Shown: in pieces, positions 35,501 to 44,500 of the stretch | How positions within the stretch are numbered: the first letter of the stretch is position 1 | Layout of the letters: each line of letters begins with the position of its first letter | NCBI RefSeq assembly: GCF_018977255.1 | Contig: NW_024704751.1 | Span: 15,872,001 to 15,936,000 of the forward strand | Origin: Callorhinchus milii | Lineage: Eukaryota | DNA length: 64,000 nucleotides | Reading direction: 5' to 3' | Made by a program: the position numbers

Positions 35501-38500
35501 AGCGACCCTACTAGCATGGAGCAGAAATAGACCAAACATTTAAGGAAGGAAAGAAATGGGGCAGAGCGGGGAAGAAACTTTTGTCCACGCAAACACAGTC
35601 ACTCCACTTGACTACAATTTTCTCAAGCGCCTTGAGAGTCTGAGGTTATAATGATTGTTAGGTGCTGTAACAAATGCCAAGCAAAGTGGAAATGATTGAT
35701 GAGTTATTGATCCAATGCTGTGATTTGATATGAAAGATATCGAACCCGAGCCTGGCTTATAAGAGAAATCGTATTGATTGATATGGTGCTTTAATTTGAT
35801 CTAAATTACATATCTATCCCCCCCTAGTGCTTGGATATGGACAATGAGTAACTGTACTGACATACAGTAAAACTCGCACAAGTCTGATCTGTATAAATCA
35901 TATAATCGTCTGAATCGTACATCTGCCCAATTCTCGTTCAAGAGTTTTATATTCTATGTATGCTTGACATAACACGTACTTTTCACATGAAATCACATTA
36001 AATGTATGGTCCCAACTGATACACACACACACACATGCATCAGTAAAAGCAGTTTAAAGTAATTATTTTTAATTTGTCGCTTGCAGTTCAGTTTCATTGC
36101 CAAAATATATTGTGTTTGTGTGGAAAGGAAAGCGTTAAATGAATGACTGCTCTGGCCCTTGTGTTGTAGCCGTTAAACCATCGAATTCTTTGACATTGGG
36201 AAACATTCCAACATGAACAAACATCTGATAAATCTGTGGCGAACTTTGTCAAACCCAGCTAAATCTGCACATTCCGGGTGACTGAATGTACACGATCTAA
36301 TGAGCCAAACGGTTTGAGATTGTTTTGTACCTGACCGATGCTGGTATTTGGTGTGTGTGGGTGGGTGCTTTTACCTGCTGGAGTTTAAATTGAGGTTTTT
36401 GGTATGGAATGAATGGAATGAGAGCTTGAAGTGAATCCAGCTGTCAATCTGACTCCTGCAGATGGGGCTTCGGATGAATGAATCTGGTGAATGCTTCACT
36501 TTATCTACGAATGCCGAGCCATTATATTAGGACAAACTCATTATGCACCATCCAAGGAGCAGTGGGGCAGAACCTCGGTACAGTAACTAGGAAAATTTTG
36601 TTGTTGAACTGGGAACACCAGCGATGAGATTAACCAGTATTGATCTCACCAAGTATTGATCATTGCTTGTGATTCAGATATGGATTCTGGCTGGCACTGG
36701 GTATGGATTATTTTATCTGCGTAATGTAGCTCTGCAATGATTAGATATCAAATTGATTCTACACTCGATCAGATCTGCCACCTGTAAACTATCTATTAAG
36801 CTGTGATTAAATATCAGAGCTTGTTCTTCTTAGATATTGATAACTACACTCATCGCATATTGATCAGATGTCCTATAGCATGGAGTTCCCCTAGCGTTGT
36901 GGTGATCGAGAGCATCTGGGTTCAATTCCCAGGCGGGACAAAACCTTAGGCAAGTTTCCTTGCTCCACATACCTGTTTACCTAACAGTAAGTAAGAACAC
37001 GTTTTTTTAGTTGATTGGCAGATCGATTTCTGGGGCAAATAATCCCTAAGAAAAAATTAATCATTCAATCCATGTCTGTTTGCGAGTCACTGCTGTGTGC
37101 AACTGGCTGCCACAATTCACCCACAAAATACACAGCCAATCCACTTTATAATATATTCTGTGAATTGCTTTGAGATGTCTCAATGACTGGATAAGGTACT
37201 GTATCAAATGCCAGGATTATTATTATTATATCAATCGCTGCTCTGATCAGATATTCCTTGGTGCTGAACCTCTGCTGTGGCCCAGCCTCTATATTTAGGG
37301 TGGGGGTGGGGGCTGGGGGCTGGGGGCAGAGTCTGGGCCTGGGGCTGTACTGACGTGCATGGCTGACTAAGCTGGCTATTTCCAGAAAAACGCTTAACGC
37401 CAAATGTCAGGCACAGGGAGCAGTGCCAAGCTGCCATCTGATCCACAGTCCAGAACATTCTACGATTTATAAAAAGGACAGCTCAGTGCGAGCCCTGCTA
37501 TCAGGCACTGAGTGTCCGGATCAGCAACAATGAGCAGCAAAGGCCCAGCTGTGGGCATCGACCTGGGGACCACCTACTCCTGCGTGGGCGTCTTCCAGCA
37601 TGGTAAAGTCGAGATCATTGCCAACGACCAAGGCAACAGGACCACCCCAAGCTACGTGGCCTTTACCGACACCGAGAGACTCATCGGGGATGCAGCCAAG
37701 AACCAAGTGGCCATGAATCCCCAGAACACCATCTTCGATGCCAAGAGGCTGATCGGCAGGAAGTACAATGATGCCACCGTCCAATCTGATATGAAATATT
37801 GGCCTTTCCAAGTGGTCAATGAGGGCACCAAGCCCAAAGTCCAGGTGCTGTACAAAGGGGAGAGCAAGACCTTCTACGCTGAGGAGATCTCCTCCATGGT
37901 CCTGATCAAAATGAAGGAGATCGCCGAGGCTTATCTGGGCAAATCCATTAACAACGCAGTCATCACAGTCCCAGCTTACTTCAACGATTCCCAACGTCAG
38001 GCCACCAAGGATGCTGGAGCCATCGCTGGGCTCAATGTGTTGAGGATCATCAACGAGCCAACAGCAGCCGCCATCGCTTACGGTCTGGATAAGAAGGTGG
38101 GTTTCCATTTGGTTAGAGCTTCTCTCTAGGGCTGGGGGCAAGATACAGTTTCCAATGCTCTCCTAACCTTCTAGTTAATCCAATTAATTATATTAATTTA
38201 TAATGAGATTTATTAGAACAGTAAGTTATAGCTCTGAGAATAAGTTATGTGCCTGGTCATGTACAGGGTGTCCCTACTTATAGGTTTATATGAGATGTTC
38301 ACACGACATGCCACGTAGACATTTCCACACATCAACTTAGTGGCATAACCTTTCACGAACGCAATGAAATGACAGACATCTCCTGTATTAGCTGCACGCT
38401 GTTTACTAATGTTGAAATAAAAGAAAAGAACATAATTAATAATAAAAATCTCTGTGAGTAAGGACTTCTGATTCAATACAATACAATGTAAAAATTTCCG

Positions 38501-41500: not shown

Positions 41501-44500
41501 GATAAGTCACTGTATCAAATGCAAGGATTACTCTTATTATTATTATGAAGTCCGTTGAGACACCAGGAGATGCTGCATTAAGTTGTTCCGCTTCTATCTT
41601 TTAAAGGGAAAAATCAGTGAGGACGACAAACAGAAGGTGCTGAGTAAAGTGAAGGAAGTGCTGGACTGGCTGGACAAGAACCAAATGGCTGAGAAGGAGG
41701 AGTACGAGTTTCAGCAGAAGGAGCTGGAGAAGCTGTGCAATCCCATCGTCGCCAGTCTGTACCAGAGCGGGGGAGCCCCTGGCCCAGGGGGGGTCCCTCC
41801 GGGGGCAGGGAACCCCACAGGAGCTGCTGGACCAACTATAGAGGAGGTGGACTAAGGAGCGAAGAACAGCAGAAATAAGCAAGTTTAGTAAAAAGAGCTT
41901 AATTCGCTTTATAGAGCTACGCAGAGTCTTCCTGTCGGCCAATTCATTTTAAGGTGCTTCAAAGTGTCGCGGGAGATAGTTATTCCTAAAACAAAGTAGT
42001 CGAAAGCAGGTAAGTGTAGCGCTTAGTATAGTAATGTCCAGTAATAGTAAACCTGGAGCAGGCTCCCTAGGGAGACGGTTGAAGCAGGAAATGTTGATTC
42101 CTTCAAACACAGACTAGATAGTTTTCTTTTAGGAAATAACATTATGGGATATAGGACATAGATAGTTCAGGACATATGTGCATGTGACTGCCGGGAAGAT
42201 GGAAGAAAAGAGACCTGTTTTTTGCCCAGCATTTCTTATGTTCTTATGCTTAGTTTCTTGTCCCTTTCACAGCAAGTGGCGGGCATCATGTAGACTCTCT
42301 CGAAAGATGTATTTTTCTAAGTGTTTCAAACAACCCAAAGAACACAAATCATTTGTTTTTTTTGTTGTTTGTGCATTGCGAGTAAGTGCGACGTCTGTCA
42401 GCGAGATTGAGAGTAGGAAACACCCAATCACCCACAACAACAACTTGCCTTTGTATAGCGCAGTCGATTCGGGGTCAGTAACTGCGGGCACAAATTGAAG
42501 ATAATTACACAGGAAATAAAGGGTGTGGGGTGGGGGGGGTATAGAAGAGCTGCCTTCACCCAGCGGGCGACGAGAATGTGAACTGTCTACCACATAGCAA
42601 AGGTGTGTGAGGGTCAGTGGGCAGGGAATTGGGAGTAGGTGTGCTCAGGTGGAGAAAACCACCAGCGCAGACCTGACGGGCCGAACAGCCTGTTTCTGTG
42701 CTGTAAAGCTCCTGTCATTCTGAAAGCTTGCTGGTAATGAGTTTTTTAGTGAAGGGAAGCCCTTTTTCTTCACATGTATTGGTGCGTTGATGTTCACTGA
42801 AGCCGTGAGTCAGTTTACACCGCGCTCTGCTGTGATGGCGAATTTAAAGACGTTTGGACATTTCTGAGGCCAGAAAATTCCACAATGTCTTAACCATCTG
42901 ACGATTTGGGCTCTGAAATTTAAGGTGGAGCAGAGTTGTGCAAAATATAACGATCTACAATTTTTTTATCACATTAAATATTAAGACATGAAGACGCACA
43001 GGATAAGATTGGGTAGCTTTCAGGTCTCTGTAATGTTACCTGCGACAGTGTTGAAGATGCTCAGCGTATTTTATACCAGATTACACGTAATTTGCATATT
43101 GCTTAATTGAAGAAAAATGGGATTCACAGGATCAATCTTTAATTCCTTCGTACTGGCGAATGCACTGATGTATTTAACCATGCTTGTTGTGTGAAGACAA
43201 AATAAAGCATCTCAACACAAAACAAATCCTGCTCGACAATTGTTAACATTAAACTGTGTTCAGTCTGTCTCTTCCTGTCACACTGCATGCAGTTTCAGAG
43301 TCACCCACTGCTGAATGCCCCAGGGACCTGTGATTTCTTAATTACACCAACAACTTGTATTCATCTAGCGCAACTCACACAAGGTAGCAACCCAGAGCGA
43401 CGGACAATTGTGGAGCCCGATGCCAAGCGAACTGGGACTGAAAGGATTGCTCTTAAAAGACCTGGTGAAAACACGATGGGCTGAATCGCCTTGTGTGCTA
43501 TAAACCTTTGTGTTCTACAACAGACACCATTGATGCCACACTGAAGGTATAGTCAGGCAAGAAAGACCCTCCCCAAGATGCCTGCACCCCCGCCCACTGC
43601 CCCCTCGCCTTGCCATCCAGGGTGAGACCTGAATGAGACTTGGTGAGATTAACAGAGTTCACAGGTCAGTCGAGATTGAAGCTAAGGGGAACGGAGTGTT
43701 TCTGTACGACAATCTGCGACTCTCTAAGGATTATACCCCTCGTCTTACACACCTCATCACACCTAAACCCTTCATTTCCTGACACTGATCAAGTAAGTCG
43801 TTGCTGAACTCTGCCCTAGGCTGGGATATCCTTCCCCAGGTGTCAGACTAATTCAGCTGCACTTACTCTCGCCTCTGAGTCAGAACATTATTTGTTCCGT
43901 TGCCATGTTAGGACTTTAAGCTCACATTGCAGACCAGCAGGTGGGGATCTCTGTTCCACTTGTAAGTGCTGCCACTTTGTGGTGTCACTGGCTCACCTCA
44001 CTGCCAGGTTGTCATCTCACTCTCCAAACATTGCCAGTTGCCAATTAATAATAATTATAATAATCCGTGCATTTCTTACTGAAATTAACACAAGACTTGG
44101 GCAAGGACTGTATTTCACCTGAGCTGTTCGTGATGAGAAAGGCCATTTGATCTCTCCATTATTCCAGGACCCTCCCCATCATCTCGAGAGGAAAACACAC
44201 AGCTAAGTAACGCACAGCAAGATAACGAGAATAGCGATCTACCTGGAGGACTGTTGGCCAGGATTGATGCCCTGGTCTAGCCTGTGCATTCCAACGTTTT
44301 GCTTGGTAAACCTAGTAATCATTTCTGATTTCCAAATTGTTTTTCCTCCAGTAAAACAGCTTCTGTTCATAAAAATATTATTATTTGGTCACCCACCCCA
44401 CCCTCCCTGCCCACCACCTTTCCTGATCCCAACCTCCAGCTCAGGTCCAAATCCCTGTGCATCGCCTTGGGACATCCTCCCAACGTAAAAGGCGCTGTAT

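What the first reader, a model, noticed from the sequence alone, without database searches (positions are those of the whole stretch)
37379..41855. Inducible-looking Hsp70 with two CDS introns: intermediate between HSPA8 and intronless HSP70s
Seen: HSEs directly adjoin a TATA box about 55 nt before the ATG, leaving no room for a 5'UTR intron. The protein has HSPA1-like residues ([23 protein letters not shown]) and no GGMP repeats, and I saw no U14-like snoRNA in the introns. Yet the CDS has two phase-0 introns. Recalled: intron 1 (GLDKK|VGAERN) matches an HSPA8 intron position, intron 2 (DDNMK|GKISE) does not, HSPA8 has seven CDS introns, and HSPA1/2/6 have none. Inference: a distinct Hsp70 lineage that lost most ancestral introns and gained or kept a non-HSPA8 one, at a locus where human has no HSP70. 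This bears on the retrogene-origin model for vertebrate inducible HSP70s and on splicing under heat stress.
Basis: partly seen in the sequence, partly recalled or inferred. Interest (0 to 1): 0.7.

Follow-up and report, generated by a model that had tools for sequence, protein, structure and literature searches.

The report
Two-intron Hsp70 gene of cartilaginous fishes
This is an intact Hsp70 chaperone gene of the elephant shark with only two introns, part of a group seen here only in sharks and chimaeras, and it may show how the intron-free heat-shock genes of other vertebrates arose.

Summary
The window is Callorhinchus milii, not human. It carries a three-exon cytosolic Hsp70 gene: 37530-38096, 38824-39936 and 41607-41855. 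Both introns are phase 0 with GT..AG ends. The three exons tile the public 642-aa record "heat shock cognate 71 kDa protein-like" at 100%.

- **Promoter:** a three-unit heat-shock element lies 7 nt before TATAAAA, which ends 55 nt before the ATG.
- **Intron 1:** it falls between Hsc70 codons 188 and 189, a published HSPA8 splice site.
- **Intron 2:** it falls at 559/560 in Hsc70 numbering. It matches no HSPA8 exon edge that I could recover, but a sawshark isoform breaks at the same place.
- **Other features:** no U14 snoRNA and no GGMP repeat.
- **Phylogeny:** four cartilaginous-fish proteins form their own clade (100/98). Its position relative to HSPA8, HSPA2 and HSPA1/fish hsp70 is unresolved. 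Only a sister pairing with sawfish HSC71 is disfavoured (AU p 0.03).
the three "HSPA1-like" motifs are not diagnostic, and the loop at the intron 1 junction is HSPA8-like.

Heat induction is untested. The gene model is already public, but none of my ten paper searches found it described. This is a modestly interesting new member of a known family.

The parts
37380..37387 (+). Two-unit HSE-like site, TTCcaGAA
   Evidence: Found by the pattern scan and read. Its flanking units do not fit the consensus, so it is weak on its own.
37448..37460 (+). Three-unit heat-shock element, GTCcaGAAcaTTC, with one mismatch
   Evidence: It is one of 9 such sites in the window and the only one within 36500-37600. 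It lies 7 nt upstream of the TATA box.
37468..37474 (+). TATA box, TATAAAA
   Evidence: 55 nt lie between it and the ATG. A start about 30 nt downstream would give a 5'UTR of about 30 nt (inference).
37530..38096 (+). Coding exon 1, 189 codons, the first part of the nucleotide-binding domain
   Evidence: It matches P0006 residues 1-189 at 100%. Pfam HSP70 scores E 3.3e-90 over profile positions 1-182. It ends at Hsc70 residue 188.
38097..38823 (+). Intron 1, 727 nt, phase 0, GT..AG
   Evidence: Its position equals the HSPA8 splice between codons 188 and 189.
38824..39936 (+). Coding exon 2, 371 codons: the rest of the nucleotide-binding domain, the substrate-binding domain and the start of the lid
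   Evidence: It matches P0006 residues 190-560. Pfam HSP70 scores E 8.5e-159. It aligns with Hsc70 from residue 189 and with HSPA1A up to residue 559.
39937..41606 (+). Intron 2, 1670 nt, phase 0, GT..AG. It holds three pieces of a tRNA-derived SINE.
   Evidence: The SINE pieces lie at 39960-40300 (+), 40804-40916 (-) and 41365-41539 (+). The tRNA-like head lies at 39972-40043. The sawshark isoform P0027 diverges exactly at this junction.
41607..41855 (+). Coding exon 3, 82 codons plus TAA: lid helices, a Gly/Pro-rich tail and EEVD
   Evidence: It matches P0006 residues 561-642 at 100%. It aligns with HSPA1A 560-641.
42515..42520 (+). First AATAAA after the stop codon, a candidate poly(A) signal
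   Evidence: Motif scan only. It is not supported by transcript data.

Best explanation
This is a working, spliced gene for a canonical cytosolic Hsp70 chaperone of Callorhinchus milii. It belongs to a paralogue group that I found only in cartilaginous fishes: one chimaera and three sharks.

**Origin.** The group most likely arose by DNA-level duplication of an intron-bearing ancestor before cartilaginous and bony vertebrates split. It kept the ancient intron at Hsc70 codons 188/189. It lacks the other six HSPA8 coding introns. It carries one further intron at 559/560 that is at least as old as the chimaera-shark split.

**How it works.** HSF trimers bind the HSE beside the TATA box. Transcription starts about 30 nt after the TATA. 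Two introns are removed. The 642-aa product has an ATPase domain, a substrate-binding domain, a lid and a C-terminal EEVD that docks TPR co-chaperones.

**Shown and inferred.** The gene structure, intactness, family, clade and intron positions are shown. The age of the duplication is inferred from trees. Heat induction and the transcription start are inferred from motifs only and are the weakest part, at about even odds.
For: - **Structure and identity:**
- **Species:** one search gives a 100% match to C. milii records.
- **Orthologues:** Heptranchias, Chiloscyllium and Pristiophorus are 87.2-88.5% identical over the full length. The other 47 rows compared are 76-88% identical.
- **Clade:** the careful tree of 51 rows gives the four-protein clade 100/98. 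HSPA2 gets 100/100, HSPA1 plus ray-finned-fish hsp70 gets 99/100, and HSPA8-like gets 89/58.
- **Not a recent HSPA8 copy:** a clade of the four with sawfish HSC71 alone costs 19.3 lnL (AU p 0.032).
- **Intron 1:**. The 51-codon exon that ends at this site is skipped in 5 of 31 HSPA8 records, including sawfish.
- **Intron 2:** sawshark isoform X3 leaves the canonical sequence right after ...DDNIK.
- **Rate:** the tree path from Callorhinchus to Heptranchias is about 0.20. The path from sawfish to mammal HSPA8 is about 0.09. The group therefore evolves faster than HSPA8.
- **Promoter:**
- **Introns do not bar induction:** intron-bearing hspa8b is reported as strongly heat-inducible in teleosts (passages).
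Against: - Deep branching is unresolved. AU tests do not reject union with HSPA8-like, HSPA2 or HSPA1/hsp70.
- The rejection of a sister pairing with sawfish HSC71 is only p 0.032. Long branches could produce that result.
- The exon 1 columns alone place the group inside HSPA8-like rows, with weak support (SH-aLRT 80).
- The KKVGAERN loop at the intron 1 junction is of HSPA8 type.
- Sampling came from three capped top-120 lists. Bony-fish orthologues, and other Hsp70 genes of cartilaginous fishes, may have been missed.
- HSE-like trimers are no more frequent in the window than chance predicts (9 against 19.3 expected). HSPA8 promoters also carry HSEs (recalled).
- No expression data were seen.
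Confidence: 0.6

Rival explanations
1. The group is the cartilaginous-fish counterpart (orthologue or pro-orthologue) of one of the intron-free lineages, HSPA2 or HSPA1/fish hsp70. In that case those lineages began as ordinary intron-bearing duplicates and lost their introns later, rather than starting as retrocopies of HSPA8 mRNA.
For: - No cartilaginous-fish protein sits in the HSPA2 clade (0 of 11 rows) or the HSPA1/hsp70 clade (0 of 14 rows) of my sample.
- Outside sharks, the best full-coverage named hits to exon 3 are frog HSPA2 at 71%. HSPA8 records that cover it fully are at 55-65%.
- In exon 2 the best hits outside sharks are teleost hsp70 at up to 91%.
- AU tests leave both unions open: lnL differences 0.51 and 0.67, p 0.39 and 0.46.
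- The promoter has an HSE next to the TATA box.
Against: - No tree gives positive support for either union.
- Diagnostic columns are mixed: 5 like HSPA8 against 5 like HSPA2, and 2 like HSPA8 against 4 like HSPA1.
- The neighbours here are a CNK-type gene and a CatSper-type gene. They are not those of human HSPA2 or HSPA1 (recalled).
- The absence of shark sequences in those clades may only reflect the capped searches.
Confidence: 0.2
2. The group is a duplicate of HSPA8 made within cartilaginous fishes. It lost most of its introns, for example by recombination with a cDNA, and then evolved fast. Its separate place in the tree would then be a long-branch effect, and it would say nothing about HSPA1 or HSPA2.
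For: - Public records name it "heat shock cognate 71 kDa protein-like".
- It keeps the HSPA8 intron at 188/189.
- The pattern KKVGxERN occurs in 18 of 19 HSPA8-like rows and in 0 of 25 HSPA1, hsp70 or HSPA2 rows. The exact KKVGAERN occurs in 2 of the 4 clade rows.
- The exon 1 tree places the group among HSPA8-like rows.
- Union with all HSPA8-like rows is not rejected (p 0.41).
Against: - A clade with the only cartilaginous-fish HSPA8 in the set costs 19.3 lnL (AU p 0.032).
- There is no GGMP repeat and no U14 snoRNA.
- Intron 2 matches no HSPA8 exon edge in 27 of 27 records outside Sinocyclocheilus.
Confidence: 0.15
3. The gene and its origin are as in the best explanation, but it is not a heat-shock gene in practice. 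It would be expressed constitutively or in particular tissues, as HSPA8 and mammalian HSPA2 are, with the HSE giving only basal or developmental control.
For: - Only one good HSE is present, and the motif is not enriched in the window.
- Two introns must be spliced out.
- HSPA2 is described as testis-enriched and not heat-induced in rodents (abstract of PMC4326386 in the listing only).
Against: - The HSE lies 7 nt from a TATA box in a compact promoter of about 300 nt, bounded upstream by a SINE.
- Intron-bearing hspa8b is strongly heat-induced in teleosts.
Confidence: 0.4

Closest known systems
HSPA8 / Hsc70 (heat shock cognate 71 kDa protein)
   Same: - Canonical cytosolic Hsp70 with an EEVD end.
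- About 84-85% identity over the full length.
- It shares the phase-0 intron between codons 188 and 189.
- It shares the KKVGAERN loop.
- Public records name this gene after it.
   Different: - Two coding introns instead of seven.
- No U14 snoRNA in the introns.
- No GGMP repeats.
- An intron at 559/560 that HSPA8 records do not show.
- Faster evolution and a clade of its own.
- Different neighbours. HSPA8 is fused to CLMP-type Ig-domain neighbours in several mis-merged records. A CNK-type gene lies beside this one.
HSPA1A/B and ray-finned-fish hsp70 (the classical heat-inducible genes)
   Same: - An HSE close to a TATA box and a short leader.
- No GGMP repeat.
- Up to 91% identity in exon 2.
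- The DDNMK-type sequence before intron 2 resembles fish hsp70 (DENLK, DENMK).
   Different: - Those genes have an intron-free coding region.
- They form their own clade at 99/100 without this gene.
- Their loop at 185-195 differs.
HSPA2 (tetrapod heat shock-related 70 kDa protein 2; bird HSP70)
   Same: - Outside sharks, frog HSPA2 has the most similar C-terminal exon at full coverage (71%).
- The tail is Gly-rich without GGMP.
   Different: - HSPA2 has a single coding exon in human.
- It forms a separate clade at 100/100.
- It is reported absent from the fishes surveyed.

Membership tests
Canonical cytosolic Hsp70 (HSPA1/2/6/8 group) | Hsp70 nucleotide-binding and substrate-binding domains over the full length | tested here: met
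   Pfam HSP70 matches exon 1 (E 3.3e-90, profile positions 1-182) and exon 2 (E 8.5e-159, profile positions 185-548). Exon 3 aligns with the lid and tail of HSPA1A 560-641.
Canonical cytosolic Hsp70 (HSPA1/2/6/8 group) | C-terminal EEVD, with no signal peptide and no ER-retention end | tested here: met
   The protein starts [13 protein letters not shown] and ends PTIEEVD.
Canonical cytosolic Hsp70 (HSPA1/2/6/8 group) | Intact reading frame | tested here: met
   The three exons give 642 codons with no stop and equal P0006.
HSPA8 orthologues | Eight coding exons (seven coding introns) | tested here: not met
   This gene has three coding exons. HSPA8 has eight.
HSPA8 orthologues | U14 (SNORD14) snoRNA copies in the introns | tested here: not met
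   No SNORD14 match at E up to 10 over 36500-42500, and none at gathering score in the whole window. The feature itself is taken from a review (passages).
HSPA8 orthologues | GGMP repeats in the tail | tested here: not met
   The tail reads [29 protein letters not shown]. The mammalian HSPA8 row has GGMPGGMPGG.
HSPA8 orthologues | Groups with HSPA8 in a tree | tested here: inconclusive
   It falls outside the HSPA8-like clade in the full-length tree. Union with that clade is not rejected (p 0.41). The exon 1 columns place it inside. A sister pairing with sawfish HSC71 is disfavoured (p 0.032).
HSPA1 / fish hsp70 (inducible lineage) | Intron-free coding region | tested here: not met
   This gene has two coding introns. 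The HSPA1 genes and the teleost hspa1 group are intron-free in the coding region.
HSPA1 / fish hsp70 (inducible lineage) | Groups with HSPA1/hsp70 in a tree | tested here: inconclusive
   It is not in that 99/100 clade. Union is not rejected (p 0.46).
HSPA1 / fish hsp70 (inducible lineage) | Strong induction by heat through HSF | not testable with these tools
   The only evidence is a three-unit HSE with one mismatch beside a TATA box. No expression data were available.
HSPA2 | Single coding exon and membership of the HSPA2 clade | tested here: not met
   This gene has three coding exons. The HSPA2 clade (100/100) excludes it, although union is not rejected (p 0.39).

The most novel reading that the evidence does not exclude
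This gene may be the surviving intron-bearing representative of the lineage that became the intron-free HSPA1 and/or HSPA2 genes of bony vertebrates. If so, the "inducible" vertebrate HSP70s began as an ordinary DNA duplicate of an intron-rich ancestor and lost their introns stepwise, rather than being born as retrocopies of HSPA8 mRNA as Brocchieri et al. 2008 proposed. Cartilaginous fishes would then mount their heat-shock response with an Hsp70 gene that has to be spliced twice.
Probability: 0.2. Interest if true: 0.6.

Novelty: new member of a known kind. Interest (0 to 1): 0.35.

Why it matters
Textbook accounts divide vertebrate cytosolic Hsp70 genes into an intron-rich cognate gene (HSPA8) and intron-free stress or testis genes (HSPA1, HSPA2, HSPA6). 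One published account derives the second set from the first by retrotransposition. A conserved gene with just two coding introns, one of them at an HSPA8 site, is a third state.

Depending on where its clade attaches, it is one of two things. It may be a lineage-specific case of heavy intron loss. Or it may be evidence that the intron-free genes passed through an intron-poor stage.

It also offers a natural test of whether a gene that looks heat-responsive can be expressed when heat impairs splicing. The gene itself is an ordinary chaperone and its model is already in public annotation. The value therefore lies in comparative genomics, not in new biochemistry.

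Tried and rejected
**Joined model.** Exons 2 and 3 went separately to the large protein search. Exon 1 went to Pfam, the PDB sequences and a pairwise comparison. Full-length comparisons used the public record P0006.

**Third protein search.** I spent it on frog HSPA2 (P0123) to obtain HSPA2 and HSPA1 reference rows, so exon 1 was never run against the large database.

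**Signature residues.** Too few diagnostic columns (9, 11 and 12), and the result is mixed, so they give no assignment.

**Exon-wise trees for a chimeric origin.** Exon 1 leans weakly towards HSPA8-like rows and exon 2 stands alone. This is not strong enough to claim a chimaera.

**An HSPA8 exon edge at 559/560.** None appears in 27 of 27 records outside Sinocyclocheilus. Four of four Sinocyclocheilus grahami Ensembl isoforms diverge at 559-563. They break at three different residues, so I take them for model artefacts and leave them unexplained.

**The Heterodontus "allergen MAG29-like" fragment P0143.** It looked like a shared exon edge, but weak homology runs back to residue 526. I rejected it.

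**Enrichment of the HSE motif.** Not enriched.

**Cluster look-up.** I tried it to get more shark species and accession numbers.

**Paper searches.** Ten searches found no paper that describes this gene, a two-intron vertebrate Hsp70, or an Hsp70 beside CNKSR1.

**Not checked.**
- No eukaryotic genome collection was on hand, so intron positions, promoters and synteny in other species were not checked.
- Supplements were closed. Table S1 and Figure S1 of Brocchieri et al. hold the exact HSPA8 exon coordinates, and I could not see them.

Full report
**What the window is.** Exon 2 of the gene matches eight Callorhinchus milii records at 100%, among them the NCBI protein "heat shock cognate 71 kDa protein-like" (P0006, 642 aa). 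The window is therefore elephant-shark DNA and not human. It holds two N runs (54727-55137 and 55201-55346), which I left alone.

**The observation.** The sequence, the frame list and a script give a three-exon gene on the + strand.
- Exon 1 is 37530-38096 (189 codons).
- Intron 1 is 38097-38823 (727 nt, GTGGGT...TTTAG).
- Exon 2 is 38824-39936 (371 codons).
- Intron 2 is 39937-41606 (1670 nt, GTAAGA...TAAAG).
- Exon 3 is 41607-41855 (82 codons plus TAA).

Both introns lie between codons. The exons are richer in G+C (0.54-0.57) than the introns (0.47 and 0.41). Read-through of either intron stops after 10 or 7 codons. The three exon translations tile P0006 at residues 1-189, 190-560 and 561-642 with no mismatch. 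The one M/V difference is table 11 reading an initial GTG as M.

The joined step was left out. Full-length comparisons used the public record P0006.

**Promoter.** GTCcaGAAcaTTC lies at 37448-37460, one mismatch from TTCnnGAAnnTTC. It sits 7 nt before TATAAAA (37468-37474), and 55 nt follow before the ATG. A two-unit TTCcaGAA lies at 37380.

The motif alone means little. The window has 9 such trimers against 19.3 expected from shuffles. What is notable is its place beside the TATA box of an Hsp70 gene. By my arithmetic, about 0.014 is the chance that one of 9 sites falls in a given 100 nt. A SINE copy ends at 37228, so the unique promoter is only about 300 nt.

Three Ensembl-derived UniProt isoforms (P0004, P0005, P0008) begin differently and imply other upstream exons, one at 36703. 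"No room for a 5'UTR intron" therefore holds only for a start at this TATA.

**Intron positions.**
- Exon 1 ends at Hsc70 residue 188.
- Exon 2 starts at residue 189 and ends at HSPA1A residue 559.
- Exon 3 starts at residue 560.

Brocchieri et al. 2008 (PMC2266713; passages and section 5 read) make three relevant statements.
- HSPA8 has eight coding exons.
- One HSPA8 splice site lies between codons 188 and 189, conserved to within one codon with HSPA5.
- HSPA1A/B/L, HSPA2 and HSPA6 have single-exon coding regions.

Their exon table is in a supplement that I could not open. I therefore recovered HSPA8 exon edges from 31 shorter HSPA8 records aligned to a 646-aa mammalian row.
- The 51-residue block ending at 188 is missing in 5 of 31 records (two dog records, sawfish, Xenopus laevis and electric eel). 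The edge is ambiguous by one residue because a K precedes both edges.
- Three more records have a gap edge at 188/189.
- Other edges fall at about 138, 372/373, 441/442, 506-510 and 585/586. A sturgeon record also breaks after residue 585.
- These fit the exon sizes that I recall for human HSPA8.
- No edge at 559/560 appears in 27 of 27 records outside Sinocyclocheilus.
- Four of four Sinocyclocheilus isoforms diverge at 559-563, but at three different residues. I leave them unexplained.

Intron 1 is therefore the HSPA8 site, and intron 2 is not a known HSPA8 site. Intron 2 is old within cartilaginous fishes. Pristiophorus isoform X3 (P0027) leaves the canonical sequence exactly after ...DDNIK, the residue before the junction.

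- Rfam at E up to 10 finds no SNORD14 in 36500-42500. At gathering score, the whole window has only six tRNA hits, all inside SINE copies. That U14 sits in hsc70 introns of human, mouse and rat comes from a review (PMC7277114, passages).
- The tail has GGAP and GGVP but no GGMP.
- The three "HSPA1-like" motifs are present but not diagnostic. LEPVEK occurs in 13 of 19 HSPA8-like rows and DKAQIH in 13 of 19. The exact [11 protein letters not shown] is in 3 of 3 mammalian HSPA1 rows but in only 2 of the 4 shark-group rows, and in 0 of 11 ray-finned-fish hsp70 rows.
- The loop at the intron 1 junction points the other way. KKVGxERN is in 18 of 19 HSPA8-like rows and in 0 of 25 HSPA1, hsp70 or HSPA2 rows. 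The exact KKVGAERN is in 2 of the 4 shark-group rows.
- Clade-diagnostic columns are few and mixed. For HSPA8 against HSPA1 the count is 2 against 4, with 3 other. For HSPA8 against HSPA2 it is 5 against 5, with 1 other.

**Relatives.**
- In exon 2, the nearest proteins outside Callorhinchus are Heptranchias (93%), Chiloscyllium (91%) and Pristiophorus (90%). Next come teleost "hsp70 protein 1" (up to 91%) and many HSPA8-like records (about 89%) (8000 candidates scored, 120 listed).
- In exon 3, the sharks lead at 73-78%. Frog HSPA2 follows at 71% with full coverage. HSPA8 records that cover the exon fully are at 55-65% (686 of 897 candidates at E up to 1e-5, 120 listed).
- A search with frog HSPA2 brought in tetrapod HSPA2 and some fused mammalian HSPA1 records.

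**Trees.** I built a tree of 51 rows.
- 4 shark-group rows.
- 11 HSPA2 rows.
- 3 mammalian HSPA1 rows, cut from fused records.
- 11 ray-finned-fish hsp70 rows.
- 19 HSPA8-like rows.
- 3 outgroups.
- One further row was dropped because only 345 residues matched.

The careful tree gives four vertebrate clades.

| Clade | Support |
|---|---|
| Shark group | 100/98 |
| HSPA2 | 100/100 |
| HSPA1 plus ray-finned-fish hsp70 | 99/100 |
| HSPA8-like | 89/58 |

Their order is unresolved.

| AU test: shark group held together with | lnL difference | p |
|---|---|---|
| HSPA2 | 0.51 | 0.39 |
| HSPA1/hsp70 | 0.67 | 0.46 |
| All HSPA8-like rows | 2.43 | 0.41 |
| Sawfish HSC71 alone | 19.3 | 0.032 |

Quick trees by exon agree only in part. 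The exon 1 columns place the group among HSPA8-like rows (SH-aLRT 80). The exon 2 columns keep it as a clade of its own (95) with no fixed place. Path lengths show the group evolving at least twice as fast as HSPA8. Yu et al. 2021 report weaker constraint on non-cognate Hsp70s, which fits (PMC8423806, passages).

**Surroundings.**
- On the minus strand upstream lie exons with SAM (32240-32569), PDZ (27075-27395, weak) and PH (23146-23472) domains, in the order of a CNK scaffold protein.
- Further on lie ion-transport exons (10537-10878) and a single-exon PMP22/claudin ORF (6458-7105, + strand).
- That these are CNKSR1 and CATSPER4 is my reading from recalled human gene order.
- RPS6KA1 downstream rests on one recalled N-terminal motif at 53767. 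No kinase-motif exon was found in the window.
- The human inventory of Brocchieri et al. lists on chromosome 1 only HSPA6 and HSPA7 at 1q23.3 and two pseudogenes at 38.9 and 245 Mb. This is consistent with no human Hsp70 beside CNKSR1, whose own position is recalled.

**What it most likely is.** It is a functional cytosolic Hsp70 paralogue that cartilaginous fishes have kept since before chimaeras and sharks diverged. It was probably made by DNA duplication of an intron-bearing ancestor before the split from bony vertebrates. Since then it has lost most ancestral introns and has gained or kept one more. Its product is an ordinary Hsp70 with an ATPase domain, a substrate-binding domain, a lid and EEVD.

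Heat induction through the TATA-proximal HSE is plausible but unproven. Teleost papers report intron-free hspa1-group genes as the strongest responders. They also report strong induction of intron-bearing hspa8b (PMC8646100 and PMC10094059, passages). Two introns therefore do not rule induction out.

**Rivals.** There are three.
- It is the counterpart of HSPA2 or HSPA1. This is the most novel reading.
- It is a fast-evolving HSPA8 duplicate specific to cartilaginous fishes.
- It has the same origin but constitutive or tissue-specific expression.

**Novelty.** The gene model is already in RefSeq and Ensembl/UniProt. Ten full-text searches found no paper describing it, a two-intron vertebrate Hsp70, or an Hsp70 next to CNKSR1. 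I rate it a new member of a known kind and of moderate interest.

**Limits.**
- No eukaryotic genome collection was on hand, and no transcript data.
- The protein searches were capped at three.
- Supplements were closed.

Noticed in passing
window 39960-40300 and 28 other places (for example 9304-9570, 14529-14844, 25794-26097, 36907-37228, 51223-51577): An abundant tRNA-derived SINE. BLASTN of the intron 2 copy gives 29 matches in 64 kb including itself, at 66-87% identity. All six Rfam tRNA hits in the window lie in its copies. Three pieces lie in intron 2, and one bounds the Hsp70 promoter.
   Followed up: partly
window 23146-32569, minus strand: Exons with SAM, PDZ (weak) and PH domains in the order of a CNK scaffold gene, head to head with the Hsp70 gene. 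Calling it CNKSR1 rests on recalled human gene order.
   Followed up: partly
window 9815-10954, minus strand: Exons of a voltage-sensor-type ion channel (Pfam Ion_trans, E 5.6e-05). This would fit CATSPER4 next to CNKSR1, by recall.
   Followed up: no
window 6458-7105, plus strand: A single 216-aa open frame with a PMP22/claudin domain (E 3.5e-21). It looks like an intron-free claudin-family gene.
   Followed up: no
window 53767, plus strand: An open frame starting [19 protein letters not shown]. From memory it resembles the start of RPS6KA1. No kinase-motif exon was found in the rest of the window. N runs follow at 54727-55346.
   Followed up: partly
window 15940-16850 and 52300-54700: Long low-complexity tracts. 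They read as PTH- or SLTH-type repeats in several frames and show strong GC skew. The second tract runs up to the first N run.
   Followed up: no
proteins P0110-P0113 (Sinocyclocheilus grahami HSC71 isoforms): All four diverge from canonical Hsc70 at residues 559-563, close to the site of intron 2 here, but at three different residues. This may be a model artefact or a real exon edge in a cyprinid hsc70 gene.
   Followed up: partly
proteins P0027 and P0030 (Pristiophorus); P0007 and P0009 (Callorhinchus): Predicted isoforms replace part or all of exon 3 with downstream exons. In the window these lie at 41925-41996 and 42085-42114. Such products would lack EEVD.
   Followed up: partly
tree: The HSPA8-like rows split into two sub-clades. 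One holds mammal, bird, one Xenopus laevis record, sawfish, hagfish, salmon and hspa8b (99/90). The other holds frog "hsc71-like" records, a skink, lungfish, sturgeon and milkfish (97/89). This may mean two old Hsc70 paralogues, or it may be noise on very short branches.
   Followed up: no
protein P0001: An unnamed 473-aa record scored higher (867 bits) than the gene's own record (797 bits) at only 83% identity. It presumably matched in more than one stretch. I did not fetch or use it.
   Followed up: no
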